From an uncultured Candidatus Saccharibacteria bacterium (lineage in GTDB: Bacteria; Patescibacteriota; Minisyncoccia; Phycocordibacterales; Zambryskibacteraceae): DNA of 25,480 nt. The notes under the pieces are model-generated. The model saw only the letters and a program-made list of their open reading frames with translations. It was not told where the DNA came from and did not search any database. This document shows, piece by piece, positions 2,192-13,081 of this stretch; positions within the stretch are counted from its first letter, which is position 1, and each line of letters starts with the position of its first letter. The position numbers were made by a program, and so were the translations under genes. The stretch covers positions 1-25,480 of the forward strand of contig CAYHKS010000002.1 in assembly GCA_964357345.1 (NCBI GenBank), given 5' to 3'.

Positions 2192-3475
2192 ATGATAATA
2201 CATATGCAACAGATGAGAAAGAGGGCCTACCACCTGCTCCGTGGGAGTGAGAACTTCTTCAAAACTGACATGTTATATCTTGCTAAGGGTGGGTCTTGGC
2301 TTGTCTTGGCTCAAGCGGTATCCATGCTCTCTGGTTTTTTCCTTTCCATCGCTTTTGCAAATCTCTTTGCCAAAGAGTCATTTGGTACTTATAAATTTAT
2401 TTTCTCAGTTGTTGGAATATTAGGAGCTTTTTCTCTTACAGGTCTTAGTACCTCCGTTATCCAATCAGTAGCACGTGGATTTCATAGCTCCCTTCAAAGA
2501 GGCTTTCGCATTAATTTGAAGTGGAGTCTGGGAATATTTTTAGCAGGAATTGGGTTAAGTATTTATTATTTTATAAATGACAACGCATTTTTATCATTTT
2601 CTTTTCTTATAGCGGGCGTCTTCTCTCCCGTAATAACAAGTGCTAACTTACACAGCTCATTTTTATTGGGAAAAAAAGACTTTAGAAGGAACTCTCTATT
2701 CGGTATGGTTCGTAATACTCTTCCTGCTATAGCCATGATCCTAGCTCTTTTGCTTGCTCCGAGTCTTCCCATCATCATCTCTGTTTACTTTCTTTCTGCG
2801 ACCCTTGTCTCTTTGTATCTATATCAAAGAACGATAAAAGCTTATCCAAAAATAGATATAGAGGGTGACCCAGAACTGGCTTCATATAGTGGACACTTAA
2901 GTGCCATGGATGTCATAGGTCGAGTTGCTAGCCTCCTAGATAAAATTCTCATCTTTCATTATCTCGGGGCAGCTCCTTTGGCAATTTACGCCTTCGCCAT
3001 CGCTCCTGTTGAACAACTCCAAGGAGGAAAGAAGATAATCAGTAGCATGATTCAACCCAAGCTGCCCGAGCGAACTTTTGAGGAACTGCAGAAGGCTGCT
3101 CCACGCAAGGCAATGATCCTCACCTTTTATGCCTTGGCTCTAGCTGGACTCTACGCACTTCTTGCTCCATACTTTTATAAATTCATTTTTCCTCAGTATT
3201 TGGATTCGGTCTTGTACTCCCAAATTTATTCTCTAACTCTTTTAGCTGTATCTGGAACTATTTTCAATGAAGTTCTTTTAGCCCACAGAAAAAAGAAGGA
3301 GCTCTATGTATTCCGTAGCGTTACTCCCATTGTCCAAATAATTCTTTTTGTTATACTTTTACCTCTATACGGATTAATGGGGCTTGTTATAACACACGTT
3401 ATTATAAGATCCTTCAATGCTCTCCTTGGTTACTATCTCGTCATGCATCCCTTTAAAACAGCTTCCTCAAGTTGA
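2192..3475 (+). CDS. wzx: Wzx/MOP-family oligosaccharide flippase
   Basis: About 420 aa with roughly a dozen hydrophobic segments. Typical MOP flippase motifs (F-G-x-Y-K-F-I-F-S; DKILIFHYLGAAPLAIYAFA). Start is ATG 2192 or 2204. Confidence 0.85.
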   Translation: MIIHMQQMRKRAYHLLRGSENFFKTDMLYLAKGGSWLVLAQAVSMLSGFFLSIAFANLFAKESFGTYKFIFSVVGILGAFSLTGLSTSVIQSVARGFHSSLQRGFRINLKWSLGIFLAGIGLSIYYFINDNAFLSFSFLIAGVFSPVITSANLHSSFLLGKKDFRRNSLFGMVRNTLPAIAMILALLLAPSLPIIISVYFLSATLVSLYLYQRTIKAYPKIDIEGDPELASYSGHLSAMDVIGRVASLLDKILIFHYLGAAPLAIYAFAIAPVEQLQGGKKIISSMIQPKLPERTFEELQKAAPRKAMILTFYALALAGLYALLAPYFYKFIFPQYLDSVLYSQIYSLTLLAVSGTIFNEVLLAHRKKKELYVFRSVTPIVQIILFVILLPLYGLMGLVITHVIIRSFNALLGYYLVMHPFKTASSS

Positions 3476-5157
3476 TCAACAACCCACTTGCTCCCATTTT
3501 TGTGTGGGTCACCAAAGTATTTTTTTTGAAGATTAATTAGGTCATTCAAAGACACTCTTCGCGCATTTTTGATCTTTTCAATAAGTCCGTCTGTGTCGTG
3601 AGCAAAGAACTGGCTCCCCTTCAGATTATAGTAGTCGCCCCATTTTTTTGTTTCAAAAAAAATCGGTACTCGACATTGAAATAAGGCTTCGAGAACCGCA
3701 GTACTCATTGTCCCGACTGTTACCTCATTTTGATTTATCGCCTGCTGAAGACCACTCCCCCCCTCCAAAATTGTCAGTTTAGGATGTTTGAGAATATCAG
3801 GTCGATGCTCATCCAACCAATTTCTGAAACCGTCTCTATATGGGCGAAAGACTATAGTGGTATCGATTTCCACTTCATTAAGTAGTGCCTCTAAATAAGT
3901 TATTACCTCTTCTGGAACAGCTATCTGTTCGGATATAAAAAGAACTTTGATTGGACCATCGATTGACGGGGATTTAGAGTCTTTTGTGAGTCTACCGAGT
4001 GGCCTCATCGGTCCAGAAACGAAAAGTTGTTCTGAACGATAAGCGTTGCTGTGTTGTAGATAATACTCTCTCCACCATTCACTCCATAAACCGTATCTAT
4101 CAACTGAGAGCTGTTTTTCTCCTCTAAAACCTGTCATGAAGTCGTACATCGTATAATAACGAGAATGAACTCCATGCATAATGCCAACAGTTTCAATAGA
4201 TTTCGTCTTACATCCCAGGAAAGTGTTCATATTGCGCTCCCCAGCTGCCGAAAAGAAGGCTGCTCTTACTTTTATAAGTGTTAATATCTTCCCTATAATT
4301 TTTATAGACCAAATATCACCACAAGCTGTCAGAAGATAATGCGTTGATATTCTAAACTTAAATTGCTCCCATGGTGGCTGATAACTACCAACAAAAGATA
4401 GGAATTGTTTTTTGGTTCGATTACTTTCTCCAGTTATAAAACTAAGTATCAATCCCAGATAGGATACTGGCTCCGAATAAATCACTGGGCGCATCCGTAG
4501 AAAAGCATTTTTCAATACTTTTTTCCATGACTCGAGACTTCGAACAAACTCCACAAAATCTAAGTTTTTGGAACGTAGTCCTTCATATACAAATTTCATT
4601 CTGAAATCATAATCCCGCCCTTTCTCAAGTTTATCGCCGATGAAAACCAAAATGAATGATTTTTTGACTATGAGAACTGGTAGCGATAGTAGGGTAAGCA
4701 ACATCTGAACGAAAATACCAAGAGGAAGTGATGGAAAATTAATTAACTTTGCTTTTCCTATAATCTTAATTTGACAACCACATGATTGAAGAAAATAAAT
4801 AAAAAGACTTTTGTATGGAGGATTATAAAGTGTTATTTTACTGTAAGTCGCCAGATGCTCGAGAAGTTTTCTATATTGTGTGTAAGGCAAACAGAAGTAT
4901 AAAAAAATACTGTTTTCATGCATCCACCACAATTCGTAGCCCTTATAAGTAAAATACTTCGTAATATGTTTTCCATCCGGCATCTTGAGACGGGAAAGTT
5001 CTTCAACCATGGCAGTTGCCTCATAAATACTTCCTGGTTCAACAAACTTTCTGAGTTCTTCTCCCGATAACACCACGTCATACTTACTGGAGTATAAGTG
5101 AGGTGATTCTTCCCCAAATATAACTAGGGCGCTCCCCTTTTTATCTTTTAAATCCAT
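3433..5157 (-). CDS. Uncharacterised glycan-locus protein; C-terminal half resembles GT-B sialyl/Kdo/glycerophospho-transferase-like folds
   Basis: 574 aa, no obvious TM run or signal peptide. Motif series GIMHG / YGLWSEWW / VSGPMR / VLFISEQ / VFRPY / STAVLEAL-x-x-x-VP resembles capsule-type GT-B transferases. The fold assignment is inference. Confidence 0.45.
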   Translation of the reverse strand: MDLKDKKGSALVIFGEESPHLYSSKYDVVLSGEELRKFVEPGSIYEATAMVEELSRLKMPDGKHITKYFTYKGYELWWMHENSIFLYFCLPYTQYRKLLEHLATYSKITLYNPPYKSLFIYFLQSCGCQIKIIGKAKLINFPSLPLGIFVQMLLTLLSLPVLIVKKSFILVFIGDKLEKGRDYDFRMKFVYEGLRSKNLDFVEFVRSLESWKKVLKNAFLRMRPVIYSEPVSYLGLILSFITGESNRTKKQFLSFVGSYQPPWEQFKFRISTHYLLTACGDIWSIKIIGKILTLIKVRAAFFSAAGERNMNTFLGCKTKSIETVGIMHGVHSRYYTMYDFMTGFRGEKQLSVDRYGLWSEWWREYYLQHSNAYRSEQLFVSGPMRPLGRLTKDSKSPSIDGPIKVLFISEQIAVPEEVITYLEALLNEVEIDTTIVFRPYRDGFRNWLDEHRPDILKHPKLTILEGGSGLQQAINQNEVTVGTMSTAVLEALFQCRVPIFFETKKWGDYYNLKGSQFFAHDTDGLIEKIKNARRVSLNDLINLQKKYFGDPHKNGSKWVVDQLEEAVLKGCMTR

Positions 5158-6064
5158 TGAGGATATCTATTAGATGTTTGACCGAGTTGGCGTGCACCTT
5201 CTCCCACGCTAAAAGACTTGAGTTGGAATTATGGGGAGACAGAATAACATTCGACATTTCCTTAAGTTGACTGTCATCAGGAAGCGGCTCATTTTCAAAA
5301 ACATCGAGACCTGCCCCGGCAATCTTTCTATTTTTTAACGCATCAATGAGAGCCTCCTCATCTACAATCGGTCCTCGGGCAGTATTTATAAGATAAGCCG
5401 TTGGTTTCATCTTTGAAAGAGTCTCTTTATTTATTAAGTGATAACTCGTATCATTTAAATCACAGTTTACACTTACAAAGTCAGACTCTATTAAGAGCTT
5501 TTCGAGTGAAACCATAAAATCCAAAGGAATTTCTTTAATGTCATTACCAAGCACCCTCATACCAAAAGCTTCTGCTCTTTTAGCCACTGCTCTACCAATA
5601 TTGCCCATACCGATAATTCCTAAAGTACATTCGTTCAAAGCAAGATTAAGTTTCTTCTCCCAGATACCTTTTTTCATCTTTTCGCTCAAATCAATCGTCC
5701 CTCTAGCAAAAGCTAGGATGTGACTCAGGACCGTATCTGCCACCGGTTCAGTAAAAGCGTTTGAAGTATTTTTTACTGGGATGCCTCGTCTACCAGCGGC
5801 TTCTTTATCTATAGAATCTATGCCCGTTCCCCATTTTACAATCACCTTAAGATTAGGAGCGTTCTCTAAAACTTTCTCTGTAATTTTGTCATCTCCACAA
5901 AGAATCGCATCGATATCGGTAACCAGAGGTAAGAGCTCTTCTTCTGACATTCTTTCATTAACTATGGGCACAATAACCTCAATGTCATGCTCTTTAAAAA
6001 ATGGCCTGTGACGCTCAACCACTGGCTGAAAATATGGAGCAGTAATTAGAACTTTGAAAATCAC
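5141..6064 (-). CDS. D-isomer-specific 2-hydroxyacid dehydrogenase (SerA/GhrB-like, NAD-dependent, no ACT domain)
   Basis: G-x-G-x-D (WGTGID), Rossmann GIIGMGNIG with acidic GND, and catalytic Arg/Glu/His in INTARG, LDVFENEP and SPHN. Start probably GTG 6064 (MIFKVLITAP); the track uses TTG 6085. Confidence 0.92.
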   Translation of the reverse strand: MIFKVLITAPYFQPVVERHRPFFKEHDIEVIVPIVNERMSEEELLPLVTDIDAILCGDDKITEKVLENAPNLKVIVKWGTGIDSIDKEAAGRRGIPVKNTSNAFTEPVADTVLSHILAFARGTIDLSEKMKKGIWEKKLNLALNECTLGIIGMGNIGRAVAKRAEAFGMRVLGNDIKEIPLDFMVSLEKLLIESDFVSVNCDLNDTSYHLINKETLSKMKPTAYLINTARGPIVDEEALIDALKNRKIAGAGLDVFENEPLPDDSQLKEMSNVILSPHNSNSSLLAWEKVHANSVKHLIDILNGFKR

Positions 6065-6099
6065 AATAAGCTTATACTGCCACAAAATGCTCGATTTGC

Positions 6100-6140: not shown

Positions 6141-7628
6141 TTAGAAACTGATCTTCGGTTCAGCGAAGAATGTATCCCGGTACTCCCGCTGAAGAATTTG
6201 TAGAAGTTCTCCAGCTTCTGGGGTATCCCTAGTCGCTAGGTCGATCTCCGACCATCTCGATATAGGGAACTTTACCTTGAGAGCGAAACCGAGACGAGCC
6301 TGACGAATTTCTTCCCTTGAGAACTGGGACATGGTCAGGACCGAATCCTCGGCATTGCCCGGAGCGATGAGATCCGGAGCTATGAACCCAGCCTCGACCG
6401 CCTCATCACGGGCTGGGGTGCCGTAATACGGGGCAAAGGTAAAGCAGTTGGTAGTGTCAACGTTTGGAAACTGCCGATTGAGCTCGATTGTTGCCAGAAA
6501 GATTTCCGGTGTCTCATGTGGATAACCTACAATATTGTTCGTATTATAGGTTATACCCATGGCCGCCGTAATCTCGAGAGCTTTTATCGCTTGTTCGTTT
6601 GTGAACTCTTTCTGGACAACCCTTCGGCGGAATTCCTCATCGCCATTTTCGATCCCAAATGCGACACGGTGAAGACCAACCTCTTTGAGTTTTTGGAGAC
6701 GCCAGTCCGTGATCGTCTCCACTCGAGTCTGGACCCAGAAGGGCAGCCCGACGTCTTGATAGATCTCGCAGAATTGGTCAAGCTCTGACCGTGACATCAT
6801 GAGAAAGGTGTCCGCCCAAAAGAACATGTACTCCACCTTATACACATCCTTGTAGTGCAGGATCTCTTCTCGAATGTTGACCATTGACTTCTTGCGAGAC
6901 CCGGTATTCCGAGAATTGCAGAAAGCACAATGGTAAACACATCCTCTGATCGTCTCTACTGGCGCCATCCGATAAAGTTTACCTGCCATCGGACGAACCA
7001 GTCTTTCGGAGTCGAACAGTCCAAGATCGAAGTCGGTCGGATTTTCGTTTAAGTCGGCGAGCGGGGCTACGCCGCCTTCTTTGATGACCCCGTCCTTGTC
7101 TCTGGACCAAATCCCCCGGATGCCGTCATAAGACTCTCCTCTTTCCATCTTTTGACAAAGTTCGAGCAGGGCAACCTCCCCCTCCCCCTTACAAACCAAG
7201 TCAATCTCGGGAAAGTCTAGAGCTCTCCTAGGAGCGAATGTTGCAAATGACCCGCCTAGGATCACTGGCATATCGCGAGGACTGCGATGTTTAATCCGCT
7301 GAATTACCTCAACTCCCAGAAGAAAGGTGCTCTCCGTGCAGGACAAACCAATAAGGTTTGGGCCGAAGGAATTCACTTTCTCGTTGAGATCTGCCCAGAC
7401 ATCACGATCTGTTTTCTGAAGTGTCCGGTGAGGTGACGGACGAACACCTAGTGTTGCCTCAGTCAACCTTTCGTAGTCCTTGGCCAGATCAAGGCCGTAA
7501 TCGGTGGTATCGAACACCTCCACCTGCATTCCATGATTCTTGAGGATCCGAGATAGCAAAGCTATCCCTGGGGGCACCAGTGTCTCACTACGAAAATTCG
7601 GATAGATGAAAAGAACTCGAAAGCTCAT
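6141..7628 (-). CDS. Cobalamin-binding radical SAM protein (class B methyltransferase-like)
   Basis: N-terminal B12-binding domain (VLFIYPN...PPGIALL...VILGGSFATF...VCKGEGE), CxxxCxxC motif RGCVYHCAFC, then GIENG and IVGYPHET. Start at ATG 7628 is supported by an SD. Confidence 0.92.
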   Translation of the reverse strand: MSFRVLFIYPNFRSETLVPPGIALLSRILKNHGMQVEVFDTTDYGLDLAKDYERLTEATLGVRPSPHRTLQKTDRDVWADLNEKVNSFGPNLIGLSCTESTFLLGVEVIQRIKHRSPRDMPVILGGSFATFAPRRALDFPEIDLVCKGEGEVALLELCQKMERGESYDGIRGIWSRDKDGVIKEGGVAPLADLNENPTDFDLGLFDSERLVRPMAGKLYRMAPVETIRGCVYHCAFCNSRNTGSRKKSMVNIREEILHYKDVYKVEYMFFWADTFLMMSRSELDQFCEIYQDVGLPFWVQTRVETITDWRLQKLKEVGLHRVAFGIENGDEEFRRRVVQKEFTNEQAIKALEITAAMGITYNTNNIVGYPHETPEIFLATIELNRQFPNVDTTNCFTFAPYYGTPARDEAVEAGFIAPDLIAPGNAEDSVLTMSQFSREEIRQARLGFALKVKFPISRWSEIDLATRDTPEAGELLQILQREYRDTFFAEPKISF

Positions 7629-7630
7629 AA

Positions 7631-7639
7631 CCACCTCTT
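7631..7639 (-). promoter_or_regulatory. Shine-Dalgarno site of the radical SAM gene
   Basis: Minus strand reads AAGAGGTGGTT-ATG. GAGGTG is complementary to the canonical anti-SD, and GAGG is 5 nt from the ATG. Confidence 0.7.
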
Positions 7640-7716
7640 GTCTAAGTAGTTTGTAGAACTTCAATCCGGCCCCACTTTATCATATACATAGATATATACA
7701 AAGAACCTTTTACGCC

Positions 7717-8349
7717 TTAGCTAAGATGAATTAGAATAGCCCGCGTTGGAGCGGCTTCGGAGCCAGCAATTTTCACAGGAAGACAGATAAGTTCATAAAC
7801 TCCAGATTTTACTCCAGTTAGATTTAAACTCTCTATAATACAAATACCCTTACCCAAAAGAATTTGGTGCACCTTAGCAGCTTCGTCAAATTTAGCAATC
7901 GAAAGATAATCCATTCCCACTAATTTTATCCCCTTCTTGGCAATCCACGATGCCCCGCTTTCGGTCAAACCAACATAATTTTTTTTAAATCTTTTTGTCT
8001 TCCCCCAAAGTGGAGAGTTGGATGTCCTGAATAAAATTCTCTTTACACCCTTCGGTATCGACAACTTTTCCAAATCTTTAACACCAATTTCCTTCACTTT
8101 TGGTAAGTATGCGACAAATACTGGGCCCATAAAAATATCTAGTGGTAACTTATCAATAGATTTACCTTTAGCTATAAAATGAAGCGGGGCGTCAATGTGA
8201 GTACCGATGTGAGCATTCATTTCTATATGCGTTTCATTCACCAAATTTTTCGAACCAATTTTCGATATACGCTTTATACAAAGCCCCGTGGAATTTGGCC
8301 ACAATGGTAAATTATTGCTAACTGGAACAGATATATCGATTATCTTCAT
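7717..8349 (-). CDS. Cyclase-family metal-dependent hydrolase (kynurenine formamidase/isatin hydrolase-like)
   Basis: Signature H-x-G-T-H-x-D-A-P-x-H (HIGTHIDAPLHF), plus VGMDYLSI, IIESLNL and LPVKI-x-G-x-E-A-A-P-x-RA. ATGA overlap with the upstream gene. Confidence 0.92.
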   Translation of the reverse strand: MKIIDISVPVSNNLPLWPNSTGLCIKRISKIGSKNLVNETHIEMNAHIGTHIDAPLHFIAKGKSIDKLPLDIFMGPVFVAYLPKVKEIGVKDLEKLSIPKGVKRILFRTSNSPLWGKTKRFKKNYVGLTESGASWIAKKGIKLVGMDYLSIAKFDEAAKVHQILLGKGICIIESLNLTGVKSGVYELICLPVKIAGSEAAPTRAILIHLS

Positions 8350-10193
8350 GGTTTCAGAAAAATCTTTAAATATTTCCCAGTTCTATGTAGTTCCCAGGCC
8401 TTTTTGAAGTCTTTGAGAGGCATAGCCGTCAGCATGGAATCTGGAATATCAATTTTTGGCAATAGCATCAAGGCCTGATGGAAATCTTGCGAATCTCCTC
8501 CCACAGAACCGGCAAAAACTTTTTCGTGCCCAACTAAATCTTCAAAATTGTAACTAATATCTCCGTAGGGAAAGCCGAGCAACATTATTGTGCAATCGGT
8601 ACGACTTTTTTTAACTACTTGCTCAAGAACCTCTTTGGACCCTGTTGCCTCGATAATTACATTAAATGATTCAAGATCAACGAGTGACGTAGAAATACTA
8701 CTAACCTTATCTTTCAAAAGCTTCAATCTATCGTTGCTCCTATCAAAAACACTAACCTTATAACCTTCAAGTGCAAGGACCTGTGAGCATAGGAAACCGA
8801 TTGGCCCAGCTCCTGTCACCGCAATTTTAGCTTGTGGAGTCAGCCTATTCCTTATTCTTCTTATGGCTCGTAGGATAACGGCTGTTGGCTCGGTTAGGGC
8901 GGCTTTCTTCGAGTCTAGATTGTCTGGTATGTGGTGGATAGCATCTCCGGGCATGACTATATATTTACTGTAAGCGCCATTAAAGTTAATAACTCCAACC
9001 TCTTTGCGATTAGAGCTATCGCGCGATAAGATACACTCCCCCACCACCTTTTGACCAACCTTGAAACGTTCACGAAATTTATTATTCGAACCGATTCTTA
9101 TTATTGTTGCGGAGAATTCATGCCCTGGAACAATCGGATATTTAGCCAACCCATCACGGTAATATCCTAAAGCTCCCTCAAGAATTTCTATATCCGTTCG
9201 ACACACGCCAACATAATCTACTTCAAGCATGATGTCTCCGGGCTTCATCTCTGGCAAGAGCACTTCCTCAAGTTCAGCCTTGTTCTTACCCTTGATAACT
9301 ACGGATTGGTTTTTTATCAACGATAAAATGCCAAGTCCCTCTCTGTTCAGATCTAGATTTCTATCTTTAAACCAACCCTGTCTACTCCCTTTCCATTGAT
9401 AATATCGAAAACGCAGTATCTCTTCGACTCTTTGCCAAGAGTAATTTGGGAAGGTGTGAAAAATATCGTCCGCCAAGCGAAGTGCGAGCCAAAAAACACT
9501 CAACCTAGTCTGAGGCGGATGCTTTAACCCAATTCTTACGGAAGCTATGGACTCTCGTCTGTAACGGTTGAAAACTTGATGCCACTCCTCTGTGTGGATG
9601 TGATATATAGTGGCTTTCGGTTCGTAATGAATAATATGCCCCATCTCGGCCATGTGTCGTGCCCAGTCAATGTCTTCGAGCCCAAAGAGATACTCATCAA
9701 AGTGATGACTCCTCCATAAATCCTTCCTGATGGCCGAATTTGCATTATTGGCATAATCAATAGCAGTCGTAGCATCTATTGGTTCCAAGCCGAATAGTCT
9801 ACGGAGATCCATCTTTTCTGAGAACTTCGATTGGCTTGCCCCCACCTGGCGTCCATATACCATGGCTACCTTCTCGTTTATGAAAGGTGCAATAAGATTG
9901 GAGAGCCATTTGTCGTTTACTGGCAGTACATGTGCTGAAGCGAAGACTAAATACTTACCCTTACTCTCCTCACATCCAATATTAAGAGCGTAACCAAATG
10001 TGAAGTCTCTACTCTCTATCTTTATAACCCTTACCTGGAACTCTTTTGCAATCTCGACTGTTCTATCGTTTGAGCTTGAGTCAACAATGATAACCTCATA
10101 GTCCTGATAATCTTGAGTCTTAAGAGCTCGCAGCAAGTTACCGAGATGCTTCTCTTCGTTAAGAGTCCTGATGATAATACTGGTCTCAGGCAT
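8346..10193 (-). CDS. Fusion of a GT2 glycosyltransferase (aa ~1-285) and a Zn-dependent MDR sugar/polyol dehydrogenase (aa ~294-615)
   Basis: GT2 part: SIIIRTLNEE, IIVDSSSNDRT, LEDIDW. MDR part: GVCRTD, PGHEFS, LTEP, GAGPIG. One uninterrupted frame. Confidence 0.9.
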   Translation of the reverse strand: MPETSIIIRTLNEEKHLGNLLRALKTQDYQDYEVIIVDSSSNDRTVEIAKEFQVRVIKIESRDFTFGYALNIGCEESKGKYLVFASAHVLPVNDKWLSNLIAPFINEKVAMVYGRQVGASQSKFSEKMDLRRLFGLEPIDATTAIDYANNANSAIRKDLWRSHHFDEYLFGLEDIDWARHMAEMGHIIHYEPKATIYHIHTEEWHQVFNRYRRESIASVRIGLKHPPQTRLSVFWLALRLADDIFHTFPNYSWQRVEEILRFRYYQWKGSRQGWFKDRNLDLNREGLGILSLIKNQSVVIKGKNKAELEEVLLPEMKPGDIMLEVDYVGVCRTDIEILEGALGYYRDGLAKYPIVPGHEFSATIIRIGSNNKFRERFKVGQKVVGECILSRDSSNRKEVGVINFNGAYSKYIVMPGDAIHHIPDNLDSKKAALTEPTAVILRAIRRIRNRLTPQAKIAVTGAGPIGFLCSQVLALEGYKVSVFDRSNDRLKLLKDKVSSISTSLVDLESFNVIIEATGSKEVLEQVVKKSRTDCTIMLLGFPYGDISYNFEDLVGHEKVFAGSVGGDSQDFHQALMLLPKIDIPDSMLTAMPLKDFKKAWELHRTGKYLKIFLKP

Positions 10194-10971
10194 AGTGTGC
10201 GATAAGATTATCCCCGGACATAAGCTCCTCTACTTTCTTGAGATCACTTAAAGTGTCCACAGCTTGAGTTTCAAAATATTCTGGGATCATCTTCACTTTG
10301 AAGCCGTATTCGAGTACCCGATTCATATCAATCGACTCAATAATTTCAAGTGGAGTTGGCTCAAGCTCATTGAACTTCAGAAGAAAGTCTCGAGTAAAAG
10401 GGATAACACAGACCTGTTTCCAAGTTGGCGGCATCGTGCCGTGCCACTTCTTACTTGAGGGAACGGGTTCACGAGAGAAGTACAAGGCATAGTTATTTTT
10501 ATCAGTAATCACCTTGGGACAATTTGGATCATTCCGTTCTTCAACAGTTGTAACCGGAGCCATCAAGTTTACCACTTTTATATCGGTATCTTCTAGAAGA
10601 GGTTCGACGGCCATATCTATCATTTCCGGTTTTATCATGGGTTCATCTCCCTGAATCATCACAATGATATCAACTCTTTTGCCTGTGGACTTCTCGATCT
10701 TCTTCAAGGCTTCGGCTGTTCTATCAGAAGCTCGTTCATGGGTGTTCATTGTCATTATCCATTTAGCTCCAATAGAATCAGCATATTTACCTATCTCTTC
10801 ATCACAAGTCGCTATATAGATTTCGTTCAAACTTTGACTCAACTTACTCCTGTGGTAAACATGTCCGATCATTGGCATACCTAAGATCTTTTCCAATGGC
10901 TTACCAGGGAATCTTGAGGATCCCATTCTAGCGGGAATAATGCCAACGATATTAAGATTATTTTTCTCCAT
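10186..10971 (-). CDS. kdsB: KdsB-family (CMP-Kdo synthetase-like) cytidylyltransferase, divergent substrate pocket
   Basis: IIPARMGSSRFPGKPL, QGDEP, ALYFSR-x-P-x-P and AVDT-x-x-DL. The symbol denotes family membership only; the substrate may not be Kdo. Confidence 0.88.
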   Translation of the reverse strand: MEKNNLNIVGIIPARMGSSRFPGKPLEKILGMPMIGHVYHRSKLSQSLNEIYIATCDEEIGKYADSIGAKWIMTMNTHERASDRTAEALKKIEKSTGKRVDIIVMIQGDEPMIKPEMIDMAVEPLLEDTDIKVVNLMAPVTTVEERNDPNCPKVITDKNNYALYFSREPVPSSKKWHGTMPPTWKQVCVIPFTRDFLLKFNELEPTPLEIIESIDMNRVLEYGFKVKMIPEYFETQAVDTLSDLKKVEELMSGDNLIAHYA

Positions 10972-10986: not shown

Positions 10987-11868
10987 TTATATCTCCTCGA
11001 AGTCCAGATGTTTGATTTGTTCAAATTGCTCGTGAGCACTGCCAAATTTTCTAAGAACAAACGGGTTCGGATAAAAAACTTCATCTGGAGAAAGCTCAAT
11101 AAACTTATTCTTGGCAACATCTTCCTTAACAAAGAAGGCGTCGTGACCGTGAGTATCACAAGCAACTAGGATATACTTTTTTTCTTTGGCCAATTTTGTT
11201 AAAGCAGTTAAAGAAGCACCGAAGTATAGAGGGTGATTTTGCTTTGGATTGAATCGTTGTGTAGCATCATATTTTTTAGTCAGCGGATGAAGACCTAGCG
11301 ATGCGTTGTATTCAATCACTACTACTCTAGGGTTAACCACTGTGATTGCCTCCCAAACCCAGTAATCATTTCCATCTATATCGATAGAAAGAAGATCAAT
11401 CTCCCTTCTGATGGCTCCATCGGTAATAGTTTTATTAATATTTTCTGCAGTAACGAAAGATTGTACAACTTGAACATTGAATCCATTATAGAAATCTCTG
11501 GCAGATTGAACCCATTTTTCATTAGCATCGATCATAAGGCCCTGCCAACCAAAATTCCGAGAAAGATTCGCTGTATTGCACTCTCGGCCATCTTCTATGC
11601 CCATTTCCACAAAAGTTCGATTAGTTACACCTATTTTTGAAAAAACATATGCCAAGATACCGTCACAGCCATGTTTAGAGTAAATTTTAAACTCCGCATT
11701 TCTGAAAGCAATTCTTTGACTCAAATTATCAGACATAAGATTTTGATAATGAGTGACAAACAAATTGTTCAACCTACCTTCAAGAATATTAATTTTTTCA
11801 GGATAAAAAATATCTCTAATAAAAATAAAAACTTTTGTGGGTAAGATTCTTTTAAGAAAGTTTTTCAT
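10987..11868 (-). CDS. FkbM-like SAM-dependent methyltransferase (putative sugar O-methyltransferase)
   Basis: YSKHGCDG, FVEMGIEDGRECNT, W-x-GLMID, DLLSIDIDGNDYWVW, PRVVVIEYN and GAS-x-x-AL form a pattern typical of FkbM-like glycan-locus methyltransferases. Start at MKNF (ATG 11868); the track uses TTG 11877. Confidence 0.65.
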   Translation of the reverse strand: MKNFLKRILPTKVFIFIRDIFYPEKINILEGRLNNLFVTHYQNLMSDNLSQRIAFRNAEFKIYSKHGCDGILAYVFSKIGVTNRTFVEMGIEDGRECNTANLSRNFGWQGLMIDANEKWVQSARDFYNGFNVQVVQSFVTAENINKTITDGAIRREIDLLSIDIDGNDYWVWEAITVVNPRVVVIEYNASLGLHPLTKKYDATQRFNPKQNHPLYFGASLTALTKLAKEKKYILVACDTHGHDAFFVKEDVAKNKFIELSPDEVFYPNPFVLRKFGSAHEQFEQIKHLDFEEI

Positions 11869-13081
11869 ATATAGCAATGTGTTGAACTACTTTATCCTCC
11901 AGATTGAATTCTGATTTTACCCTTTCTTGCCCGGCTTTACCAAGCTTTGATGCCTGCTGGGGATTTTTTAATAAAGTAACAATTTTTTCTGCCATTTCCT
12001 TAGTCTTGAGGGGATTAACAACGTATCCAGTAATTCCATCCAAAATGAGTTCTCGGGCTCCTCCATAGGGAGTCCCCACTACTGGTTTTCCTGCTGCCAT
12101 AGCAGAGAGCACGGTTCTAGGGAAGGCATCAAAGCAGACAGAAGGAACCAACACAACATCAGAAGAAGCGTAGATGTATTTCATCTCAGCTCTTCCGATC
12201 CAACCAGCAAAAAGAAGTTTGTCCTCTATGCCCATTTTGCGGGCCTCGTCTTTCATCTTTTCTGAATATGCATCAGTTTTACCTGCAATCAAAAGTACCA
12301 ACTCTGGTATCTCTTTAGAAATTTTGTCTATAGTCTCTAGAACATATTTACCGCCCTTAGCTTCGCTTATTCGTCCACTAAACAAAACTACTTTTTTACC
12401 GACCAAGCCATGTTTAGCTCTAAACTGTTCGGCATCCTCATTTGAAACATGTCGTTCCGAGACGGATGAGCCTGTATACATAACTTCTACATTCTTGATA
12501 CCGTTTTGCTCAAGAGCAATTCTTAAGGCATTACTGACAGCAAGCAATTTATCTGCATACCCAAGATATTTCCTTATAATAAAATTCCTGAAGGGATTCC
12601 AACTCTTTTTAGCTTGTTTAAGATTATCCAACCAGGTGAGACGACAATCAAAATTTTCGAGATAACGCTTTGTGTTCAATTTCCCATAACTAAATGTCAT
12701 CGCATCACGAGCGGTAAACACAACTACTTTAGTATATTTCTTAGAGAGTTTGATGGAATGATATGACAAATAGAGATGCACATTGTTCACGTGTACTACA
12801 TCAGGTTTTAGTTTCTTAAGAATCTCCTCAAGTTTTTTGATTACAGGTCTGTTATACAAACTAATGTATGACCGCCATCTGGCAGGATAATCGCTTGCGA
12901 TTTTCCAAACCGTAAGCCCTTGATAATCCGACTGCCCCGCCTCTGCTTCCTCACGACAAGTTGTTACAACAAAGACTTCATGTCCTGCCTTTTTCATTCC
13001 CAGAGCCAGGTCACAGGTAGAAATTCCTGCTCCTCCGAAGCTCTGTGGCGGAAAATCATCGGCAAGAAACAAGATTTTCAT
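11852..13081 (-). CDS. GT4 family glycosyltransferase
   Basis: MKILF...FPPQSFGGA, GHEVFV, PDVVHVNN, FSGRISEAKG, and PSVCFDAFPRTVLSAMAAGKPVV (D/S replace the usual E-x7-E). Confidence 0.92.
   Translation of the reverse strand: MKILFLADDFPPQSFGGAGISTCDLALGMKKAGHEVFVVTTCREEAEAGQSDYQGLTVWKIASDYPARWRSYISLYNRPVIKKLEEILKKLKPDVVHVNNVHLYLSYHSIKLSKKYTKVVVFTARDAMTFSYGKLNTKRYLENFDCRLTWLDNLKQAKKSWNPFRNFIIRKYLGYADKLLAVSNALRIALEQNGIKNVEVMYTGSSVSERHVSNEDAEQFRAKHGLVGKKVVLFSGRISEAKGGKYVLETIDKISKEIPELVLLIAGKTDAYSEKMKDEARKMGIEDKLLFAGWIGRAEMKYIYASSDVVLVPSVCFDAFPRTVLSAMAAGKPVVGTPYGGARELILDGITGYVVNPLKTKEMAEKIVTLLKNPQQASKLGKAGQERVKSEFNLEDKVVQHIAIYEKLS

What the first reader, a model, noticed from the sequence alone, without database searches (positions are those of the whole stretch)
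10186..10971. KdsB homolog with an intact CTP site but a rewritten sugar pocket
Seen: the nucleotide and Mg motifs (PAR-x-x-S-x-R-x-P-x-K, QGDEP, VDT-x-x-D) are intact. The segments that are H-x-G-x-Y-x-Y, LEQLR and SGT-x-R in canonical CMP-Kdo synthetases read KQVCVIPF, IDMNR and RASDR here. Known: the canonical segments contribute to Kdo binding. Inference: the enzyme activates a different ulosonate.
Basis: partly seen in the sequence, partly recalled or inferred. Interest (0 to 1): 0.6.

Follow-up and report, generated by a model that had tools for sequence, protein, structure and literature searches.

The report
KdsB-like enzyme for an unknown sugar acid
This gene in a tiny-genome (Patescibacteria) bacterium looks like the enzyme that activates the LPS sugar Kdo, but it belongs to a separate, uncharacterised sister family found across bacteria and archaea that most likely CMP-activates a different, still unknown keto sugar acid for a surface glycan.

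Summary
The CTP loop, QGDEP and VDTxxD are intact, and KQVCVIPF, ESIDMNR and HERASDR stand where canonical enzymes have RHxGxYxY, LEQLR and HxSGTxR.

These changes are not drift. They are invariant in a separate clade (SH-aLRT 98) of at least 580 species, 58-80% identical, spanning Patescibacteria to methanogens. The clade coexists with a canonical KdsB in diderms. It also occurs in genomes, this one included, that lack KdsA, NeuB and WaaA.

One correction: the SGT-x-R segment lies on the cytosine/ribose side, not the Kdo side.

In most lineages an HpcH pyruvate aldolase sits directly upstream. Here, and in related Patescibacteria, that aldolase is replaced by a GT2/Zn-dehydrogenase fusion plus a cyclase-family hydrolase, a D-2-hydroxyacid dehydrogenase and a GT-B protein. 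The cytidylyltransferase also occurs naturally fused to the 2-hydroxyacid dehydrogenase, the GT2-ADH or the aldolase.

Best reading: a CMP-ulosonate synthetase for a non-Kdo 2-keto sugar acid, here probably made by oxidation. The substrate is not identified.

I found no paper on this family. Databases name it KdsB. The scan has noted this family before on other DNA.

The parts
10186..10971 (-). KdsB-like cytidylyltransferase (KDSBL), 261 aa. Member of an uncharacterised sister clade of CMP-Kdo synthetases.
   Evidence: Pfam CTP_transf_3 E 1e-45. TIGR00466 kdsB 154.2 bits, below the 155.2 cut-off. AF2 model pLDDT 92.6; best fold match KpsU, TM 0.86-0.93, 34% identity. Clade SH-aLRT 98.
10900..10935 (-). 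CTP loop PARMGSSRFPGK (E. coli P8-K19), conserved.
10720..10740 (-). HERASDR (canonical HxSGTxR). S74R switch with R78 kept. Nucleotide-side segment.
10639..10653 (-). QGDEP (Q98, D100), sugar-OH and Mg-A ligands, conserved. The preceding canonical Asn is Met here (N96M).
10468..10479 (-). FSRE. Canonical substrate motif FSR kept, followed by a clade-specific Glu (A158E).
10396..10419 (-). KQVCVIPF replacing RHxGxYxY. Switches: H181Q, G183C, Y185I, G186P.
10318..10338 (-). ESIDMNR replacing E-x-LEQLR. Switches: E210D, Q211M.
10243..10260 (-). VDTLSD (D235, D239), Mg ligand motif, conserved.
8346..10193 (-). GT2 domain fused to a Zn polyol/sugar-dehydrogenase-like MDR domain, 615 aa. Overlaps the KDSBL stop by 8 nt (ATGCCTGA). 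In this locus type it stands where other lineages have the HpcH aldolase.
   Evidence: Never co-occurs with HpcH in 50 full-flank loci. Found fused to KDSBL in P0247, P0248 and L042.
7717..8349 (-). Cyclase/arylformamidase-family metal hydrolase (PF04199), 210 aa. 4-nt overlap with the gene upstream.
   Evidence: Present in 25 of 50 full-flank loci.
6141..7664 (-). B12-binding radical SAM enzyme, 507 aa. Optional tailoring gene.
   Evidence: Present in 15 of 50 loci.
5141..6085 (-). D-isomer-specific 2-hydroxyacid dehydrogenase, 314 aa. Resembles phosphoglycerate dehydrogenase and glyoxylate reductase.
   Evidence: Linked in 35 of 50 loci. Recurrent natural KDSBL-2HADH fusions: P0241-P0246, P0255-P0257.
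3433..5157 (-). 574-aa protein with no Pfam match. Residues about 165-572 form a GT-B fold. Candidate transferase for the activated sugar.
   Evidence: AF2 pLDDT 90. GT-B matches at Z 11-14.6. hhalign 97% probability to the 'u602' protein (TIGR04326-like) of the aldolase-type cassettes.
10987..11877 (-). 296-aa conserved hypothetical directly upstream. Possible FkbM-like methyltransferase; this is a lead only.
   Evidence: No Pfam or NCBIfam hit. Conserved in 5 CPR loci. Atlas neighbours carry PF05050 in 13-14% of members.
11852..13081 (-). GT4 glycosyltransferase at the head of the co-directional run.

Best explanation
The gene encodes an active CTP-dependent cytidylyltransferase of the KdsB fold. 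It works like CMP-Kdo synthetase, with two Mg ions and attack of the anomeric 2-OH of a 2-keto sugar acid on the alpha-phosphate of CTP. Its substrate, however, is a keto sugar acid other than Kdo.

It belongs to a strongly conserved, horizontally spread paralogue family. The CMP-sugar is then handed to a GT-B-fold transferase (3433-5157) for a surface glycan.

In most lineages the acid is probably built by an adjacent HpcH-type pyruvate aldolase. In this Patescibacteria locus type no aldolase or PEP-dependent synthase was found in the 91.6%-complete genome. The 2-keto acid is therefore more likely made by oxidising an existing sugar or aldonate, using the Zn-dehydrogenase domain, the cyclase-family hydrolase and the D-2-hydroxyacid dehydrogenase. 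Alternatively it is taken from the host.

Shown: fold, motif state, clade, phyletic pattern, synteny and fusions. Inferred: catalytic activity, the ulosonate class of substrate, the oxidative route and the transferase.
For: - Fold and catalytic residues are kept.
- Twelve fixed switches are enriched in the documented substrate motif. They include H181Q and Y185I at the Kdo contacts.
- The family is one clade apart from canonical KdsB, SH-aLRT 98.
- The family was found in at least 580 species, including archaea and a Firmicute, at 58-72% identity.
- A canonical KdsB (226-279 bits on TIGR00466) coexists with the family copy (149-174 bits) in 4 of 5 diderm carriers.
- No Kdo8P synthase over cut-off was found in 5 of 5 monoderm, archaeal or CPR carriers.
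- The own genome lacks KdsA, NeuB, WaaA, HpcH, DHDPS/NAL-type and KDPG-type aldolases.
- An HpcH aldolase lies directly upstream in 60 of 80 loci.
- HpcH and GT2-ADH are mutually exclusive.
- Natural fusions exist of the family domain to 2-HADH (nine cluster representatives: P0241-P0246, P0255-P0257), to GT2-ADH (two) and to HpcH (P0253, plus the more distant 41%-identical P0260, which lacks the clade motifs).
- u574 is a GT-B fold homologous to the cassette protein u602.
- A Capsule_synth (KpsC/KpsS-like) neighbour is present in some loci.
Against: - No biochemical data exist for any member, and no substrate can be named.
- I had no coordinates, so I could not measure how close the switched residues lie to the sugar site.
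- E210 and Q211 as Kdo contacts rest only on memory and on a docking table.
- The 2-HADH and cyclase of this locus type are only 33% and 27% identical to those of the aldolase type. The two routes may therefore not be equivalent.
- A role for 2-HADH upstream of the cytidylyltransferase does not obviously fit loci that already have an aldolase making a 2-keto acid.
- The genome is 91.6% complete, so absences are not proof.
Confidence: 0.68

Rival explanations
1. It is an isofunctional CMP-Kdo synthetase with a divergent pocket, using Kdo that is salvaged from a host or made by an unrecognised route.
For: - It has the same fold.
- FSR, Q98, E204, E207, R213 and the Mg ligands are kept.
- It passes the NCBIfam 'subfamily' models NF009905 and NF003952, which also accept E. 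coli KdsB.
- Patescibacteria are thought to live on hosts (background knowledge).
Against: - H181 and Y185 are replaced by Q and I in every member.
- The family is a separate clade.
- It coexists with a canonical KdsB in diderms.
- It is present in archaea and a Firmicute without Kdo8P synthase.
- No WaaA is present in the own genome.
- It falls below the kdsB equivalog cut-offs.
Confidence: 0.1
2. It cytidylylates a small non-sugar alpha-hydroxy or alpha-keto acid, or a phospho-acid (for example a glycerate- or glycolate-derived unit). The product would supply an acidic, later methylated, decoration rather than a glycosyl residue.
For: - The commonest fusion partner is a phosphoglycerate-dehydrogenase/glyoxylate-reductase-like 2-HADH.
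- HAD phosphatases of the phosphoglycolate-phosphatase type and many methyltransferases are linked.
- The switched pocket residues are smaller or more hydrophobic (I, M, C, P).
Against: - Transfer from a CMP ester by a GT-B enzyme needs an anomeric (hemiketal) carbon; this rests on chemical reasoning.
- The KdsB-type carboxylate/sugar motif FSR and Q98 are retained.
- The aldolase partner makes 4-hydroxy-2-oxo acids that can cyclise only if they are sugar-length.
- KpsC/KpsS-like and LIC12162-type transferases are neighbours.
Confidence: 0.15
3. It is a catalytically dead or regulatory relic of KdsB.
For: None beyond the altered pocket.
Against: - All nucleotide and metal residues are invariant.
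- Identity is 58-80% across domains of life, which implies strong purifying selection.
- It sits in operon and fusion contexts with enzymes.
Confidence: 0.02

Closest known systems
CMP-Kdo synthetase KdsB / capsule paralogue KpsU (EC 2.7.7.38; PDB 3K8D, 1GQC, 1H7E)
   Same: Same fold (TM 0.86-0.93, rmsd 1.6-2.5 A) at 29-34% identity. Shared features are the CTP loop, R78, Q98-G-D100-E-P, the FSR motif, E204, E207, R213, D235 and D239. It presumably uses the same two-metal mechanism.
   Different: - Twelve positions are fixed but different: D50C, S74R, N96M, T125N, A158E, W162S, H181Q, G183C, Y185I, G186P, E210D, Q211M.
- It forms a separate clade.
- It is a paralogue of a canonical KdsB in diderms.
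- It occurs without KdsA or WaaA, and in archaea.
CMP-nonulosonate synthetases (NeuA, PseF, LegF/PtmB; PF02348)
   Same: Same Pfam family and chemistry, CMP activation of a 2-keto acid sugar. Such genes often lie in the same glycan islands next to NeuB.
   Different: Only 18-24% identical. These enzymes have a different motif set (LQPTSPL instead of QGDEP). They form the outgroup, separated by a branch with 100% support. No NeuB is present in the own genome.
The uncharacterised 'HpcH aldolase + KdsB-like' cassette noted repeatedly in this scan
   Same: Same cytidylyltransferase clade (about 61% identity, same signature). It is likewise linked to a 2-HADH, a cyclase-family protein and a homologous GT-B-like protein.
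   Different: This locus type has no HpcH aldolase, SDR or HAD phosphatase. It carries a GT2/Zn-dehydrogenase fusion instead. Its 2-HADH and cyclase are only 33% and 27% identical to those of the aldolase type.

Membership tests
CMP-Kdo synthetase (KdsB/KpsU) | CTP_transf_3 / KdsB-type two-domain fold | tested here: met
   Pfam E 1e-45. AF2 model matches KpsU and KdsB at TM 0.85-0.93.
CMP-Kdo synthetase (KdsB/KpsU) | Nucleotide and Mg residues (P8, R10, R15, K19, R78, Q98, D100, D235) | tested here: met
   All are identical in the window protein and invariant in the clade.
CMP-Kdo synthetase (KdsB/KpsU) | Kdo-contact residues of the RHxGxYxY motif (H181, Y185) | tested here: not met
   Q186 and I190 stand in their place, invariant in 80 members. 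Contacts are taken from PMC12199768 and PMC7717453.
CMP-Kdo synthetase (KdsB/KpsU) | Score above the curated equivalog cut-offs (TIGR00466, NF003948) | tested here: not met
   154.2 bits versus cut-off 155.2, and 172 versus 281. Canonical KdsB score 227-458 on TIGR00466. The miss on TIGR00466 is marginal.
CMP-Kdo synthetase (KdsB/KpsU) | Placement inside the canonical KdsB clade | tested here: not met
   The family is monophyletic (SH-aLRT 98) and apart from E. coli KdsB plus three other canonical KdsB (87). This is a quick IQ-TREE search. KpsU was not in the tree.
CMP-Kdo synthetase (KdsB/KpsU) | Genome also encodes the Kdo pathway and a Kdo transferase (KdsA, WaaA) | tested here: not met
   No PF00793 and no PF04413 match in the 91.6%-complete genome.
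CMP-Kdo synthetase (KdsB/KpsU) | Kdo-dependent cytidylyltransferase activity or kdsB complementation | not testable with these tools
   Needs bench work.
CMP-nonulosonate synthetase (NeuA/PseF/LegF) | Sequence grouping with NeuA-type enzymes and a linked NeuB-type synthase | tested here: not met
   18-24% identity to NeuA-like copies in related loci, which form the outgroup. No NeuB in the own genome.
Uncharacterised KdsB-like clade of aldolase-type cassettes | Clade signature KQVC[IV][IM]PF, ES[IV]DMxR, H[EQ]R[AC][ST]DR | tested here: met
Uncharacterised KdsB-like clade of aldolase-type cassettes | HpcH/HpaI aldolase directly upstream | tested here: not met
   Absent from the window and from the whole own genome. 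Present in 60 of 80 related loci.
Uncharacterised KdsB-like clade of aldolase-type cassettes | Linked D-2-hydroxyacid dehydrogenase and GT-B-like 'u602' homologue | tested here: met
   2-HADH at 5141-6085. u574 at 3433-5157 matches u602 at hhalign probability 97%.

The most novel reading that the evidence does not exclude
Patescibacteria and some other lineages make a so far undescribed CMP-activated 2-keto sugar acid without any C-C bond-forming synthase. A Zn sugar dehydrogenase, a cyclase-family lactonase-like hydrolase and a D-2-hydroxyacid dehydrogenase would oxidise an ordinary sugar, via its aldonate, to a non-3-deoxy 2-ulosonic acid. The KdsB-like enzyme, sometimes fused to these partners, activates this acid for a new GT-B transferase family. 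Aldolase-type loci would reach the same or a similar acid by a different route.
Probability: 0.3. Interest if true: 0.78.

Novelty: new variant of a known kind. Interest (0 to 1): 0.6.

Why it matters
Only a handful of CMP-activated sugars are known: Kdo, sialic, legionaminic and pseudaminic acids, and Kdn. A cytidylyltransferase clade that stays about 60% identical from Patescibacteria to methanogens must make something that matters for cell surfaces, yet it has its own fixed pocket and its product is unknown.

Public annotation calls these genes KdsB. That falsely suggests Kdo or LPS in monoderm, CPR and archaeal genomes.

The family gives a concrete handle for finding a new nucleotide sugar: one small soluble enzyme and cultured carriers. 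The aldolase-free layout points to a possible synthase-independent route. It also has practical value for reading the surface glycans of uncultured episymbionts.

Tried and rejected
- The search for related loci with the single protein found nothing. It worked with alignment A1.
- I first took NF009905/PRK13368 to be a model of this clade. I rejected that because E. coli KdsB scores 296 bits on it, so no curated model separates the clade.
- The Heyes 2009 KdsB-CTP-2-deoxy-Kdo paper is not held. The roles of E210 and Q211 therefore stay unverified. A search for those residue names gave only a docking table.
- Literature searches for an aldolase-plus-KdsB-like route found no description. One search failed on syntax. 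[quoted passage not shown]
- The phosphonate-activation idea has no support.
- The upstream 296-aa protein is not a hidden aldolase (hhalign probability 0.2% to HpcH), and it is not clearly FkbM (3%).
- Foldseek and VIA searches on the 574-aa protein gave only generic GT-B matches. No sialyl- or Kdo-transferase family stood out: WaaA scored Z 10.6-10.9, among many others.
- The 'careful' IQ-TREE run did not finish in time, so the quick tree was used.
- KpsU and characterised NeuA enzymes could not be placed in the tree because no tool supplied their sequences. They were compared only through the PDB alignments.
- Docking was not possible.
Full report
**1. The gene**

window:10186-10971 (-) is a 261-aa ORF. 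Its stop overlaps the start of the next gene by 8 nt, ATGCCTGA.
- It matches Pfam CTP_transf_3 at E 1e-45.
- In NCBIfam it passes two loose 'subfamily' KdsB models. It falls just under the kdsB equivalog TIGR00466 (154.2 bits versus cut-off 155.2) and far under NF003948.
- The best solved relatives are KpsU (1GQ9, E 5e-39) and E. coli KdsB.
- An AlphaFold2 model built on 34 homologues is confident (pLDDT 92.6). It superposes on KpsU and KdsB with TM 0.85-0.93 at only 29-34% identity.

**2. The observation**

I then compared 80 family members with five canonical KdsB, including E. coli K-12 KdsB taken from NC_000913.3.

Residues kept in both groups (E. coli numbering): P8, A9, R10, S13, R15, K19, H72, R78, Q98, G99, D100, E101, P102, K143, Y154, F155, S156, R157, E204, E207, R213, D235, T236 and D239.

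Residues fixed in both groups but different: D50C, S74R, N96M, T125N, A158E, W162S, H181Q, G183C, Y185I, G186P, E210D and Q211M.

Four of these 12 lie in the 9-residue motif RHxGxYxYR, P = 3.5e-4. That motif is called substrate-binding in PMC7717453. It contains Y185, which H-bonds Kdo O5 together with Q98, and H181 (PMC12199768).

The FSR substrate motif is kept.

The SGT-x-R segment corresponds to Aquifex L70, P71 and R76, which contact cytosine and ribose (PMC3149649).

I could not check LEQLR against the primary structure paper, which is not held.

**3. A family, not drift**
- Close homologues (65-80% identity) number in the thousands and are auto-named KdsB.
- The signature is invariant in 34 of them.
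- A scan of one genome per species found at least 580 species with the signature.
- The best 80 loci (58-72% identity) come from Patescibacteria, Chloroflexota, Planctomycetota, Nitrospirota, Omnitrophota, Bacteroidota, Campylobacterota, Desulfobacterota and Syntrophomonas wolfei. They also come from archaea: Hadarchaeia, Thermoplasmatales, Methanoregula and Woesearchaeota.
- In a maximum-likelihood tree the family is one clade (SH-aLRT 98). A small sister group joins it (83), canonical KdsB form their own clade (87), and NeuA-like copies lie beyond a long branch (100).
- Four of five diderm carriers also hold a canonical KdsB scoring 226-279 bits on TIGR00466, against 149-174 for the family copy.
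- None of five monoderm, archaeal or CPR carriers has a Kdo8P synthase over cut-off.
- NCBIfam has no model specific to the clade: E. coli KdsB scores 296 bits on NF009905.

**4. The host genome**

The own assembly is 540 kb in 62 contigs and 91.6% complete. It is a Patescibacteria genome, judged from the names of its homologues.
- This gene is its only CTP_transf_3 member.
- It has no KdsA/DAHPS family, NeuB, WaaA, HpcH, DHDPS/NAL-type or KDPG-type aldolase.
- Among 100 other genomes sampled from the same class, none has a KdsB-type match over cut-off. The gene is therefore a sporadic accessory gene there.

**5. Gene neighbourhood**

I clustered all ORFs of the 80 loci plus the window and named the clusters with Pfam and NCBIfam.

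An HpcH/HpaI class II pyruvate aldolase lies directly upstream on the same strand in 60 of 80 loci.

Counts in the 50 loci with full flanks:

| Linked gene | Loci |
|---|---|
| HpcH aldolase | 38 |
| SDR | 38 |
| 2-HADH | 35 |
| HAD phosphatase | 31 |
| 'u602' or 'u574' protein | 31 |
| Cyclase family | 25 |

The usual order is HpcH > KDSBL > (methyltransferase or acetyltransferase) > 2-HADH > SDR > cyclase > HAD > u602.

The window represents a second layout, shared with L002-L005, L012, L017, L044 and L068. Its order is GT4 > 296-aa protein > KDSBL > GT2/Zn-ADH fusion > cyclase > (B12 radical SAM) > 2-HADH > u574.

HpcH and GT2-ADH never co-occur.

KDSBL stays about 61% identical between the two layouts. 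The 2-HADH and cyclase drop to 33% and 27%.

u574 is homologous to u602 (hhalign 97%). u602 in turn is related to the LIC12162-family transferase TIGR04331 (95%).

u574 folds confidently (pLDDT 90) into a GT-B core at residues 165-572. It matches only generic GT-B structures, Z 11-14.6.

Some loci carry a KpsC/KpsS-like (Capsule_synth) protein.

**6. Fusions**

A search among longer proteins found the family domain, with its signature intact, fused to several partners:
- a C-terminal 2-HADH in nine cluster representatives (P0241-P0246, P0255-P0257)
- GT2 plus Zn-ADH in two (P0247 and P0248; L042:1754-4351 is one such gene)
- an N-terminal HpcH aldolase (P0253, plus the more distant P0260 from Raphidiopsis brookii, 41% identical and without the clade motifs)
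- GFO/IDH/MocA oxidoreductases, an acetyltransferase, a sulfotransferase and a methyltransferase

These fusions tie the enzyme functionally to its neighbours, most often to the 2-hydroxyacid dehydrogenase.

**7. Interpretation**

Shown:
- an intact KdsB-type catalytic core with a clade-specific, fixed pocket
- paralogy to KdsB
- presence without any Kdo pathway
- linkage and fusion to enzymes that make or oxidise 2-oxo and 2-hydroxy acids, and to a GT-B protein

Inferred:
- The enzyme forms a CMP ester of a 2-keto sugar acid that is not Kdo.
- In aldolase-type loci the acid would be a 3-deoxy-2-ulosonate, or a 2-ulosonate if hydroxypyruvate is the donor.
- In this locus the polyol/sugar-dehydrogenase-like MDR domain (closest solved relatives are L-iditol and sorbitol dehydrogenases), the cyclase-family hydrolase acting as a possible lactonase, and the 2-HADH would oxidise a sugar via its aldonate to a 2-ulosonic acid.
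- Uptake of the acid from a host cannot be excluded.

The rival readings are isofunctional KdsB, a non-sugar acid substrate and a dead enzyme. They are weighed in their own sections.

**8. Known or new**

I found no paper describing this clade or route.

Earlier notes of this scan describe the aldolase-type cassette in more than 100 genomes, and an aldolase-free CPR module at least twice. I reached the same reading from my own searches. Those notes are not independent evidence.

Noticed in passing
L042:1754-4351 (+); proteins P0247, P0248: A single 863-865-aa ORF joins the KdsB-like domain, the GT2 domain and the Zn-dehydrogenase domain. In the window the same genes overlap by 8 nt. The fusion lacks the C-terminal tail of the cytidylyltransferase.
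   Followed up: partly
proteins P0241-P0246, P0255-P0257: Recurrent fusions with the KdsB-like domain at the N-terminus and a D-2-hydroxyacid dehydrogenase at the C-terminus. They are 552-662 aa long and include one from a Nealsonbacteria MAG.
   Followed up: partly
L049:16435-17181 and L063:15406-16155: A second, 47-48% identical 'sister' copy of the KdsB-like gene, with motifs IEVCVFPF, ESIDMLR and VRRASDR. It sits just before the u602 gene in loci that already have the main copy.
   Followed up: partly
L069:10001-10771: One clade member lacks an exact QGDEP motif although it keeps KQVC. I did not inspect it further.
   Followed up: no
window:10987-11877 (-): A 296-aa protein conserved upstream of the gene in 5 Patescibacteria loci, with no Pfam or NCBIfam match. 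Atlas neighbours carry the FkbM methyltransferase domain in only 13-14% of members.
   Followed up: partly
window:8346-10193 (-): The MDR domain keeps GVCRTD, PGHEFS, LTEP and GAGPIG followed by an Asp, which suggests an NAD type. The GT2 domain has SAH where a DxD motif is usual. I read this from the translation only.
   Followed up: no
L007:4813-6090, L008:1-1284: A 425-aa protein with a weak Capsule_synth (KpsC/KpsS beta-Kdo-transferase family) match lies near the KdsB-like gene in some archaeal and Planctomycete loci.
   Followed up: no
NCBIfam NF009905, NF003952: These 'subfamily' KdsB models accept both E. coli KdsB (296 bits) and this clade (297-317 bits). Automatic annotation therefore names the clade KdsB even in archaea and CPR genomes.
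   Followed up: yes
related loci L007, L018, L030, L035, L063, L065, L074-L080: The cassette often lies beside a NeuB plus NeuA-like nonulosonic-acid gene set and a LIC12162-family transferase (TIGR04331).
   Followed up: partly
same class as G000 (100 sampled genomes): No other sampled genome of the class has a KdsB-type gene over cut-off. The locus is therefore a patchy accessory island.
   Followed up: partly
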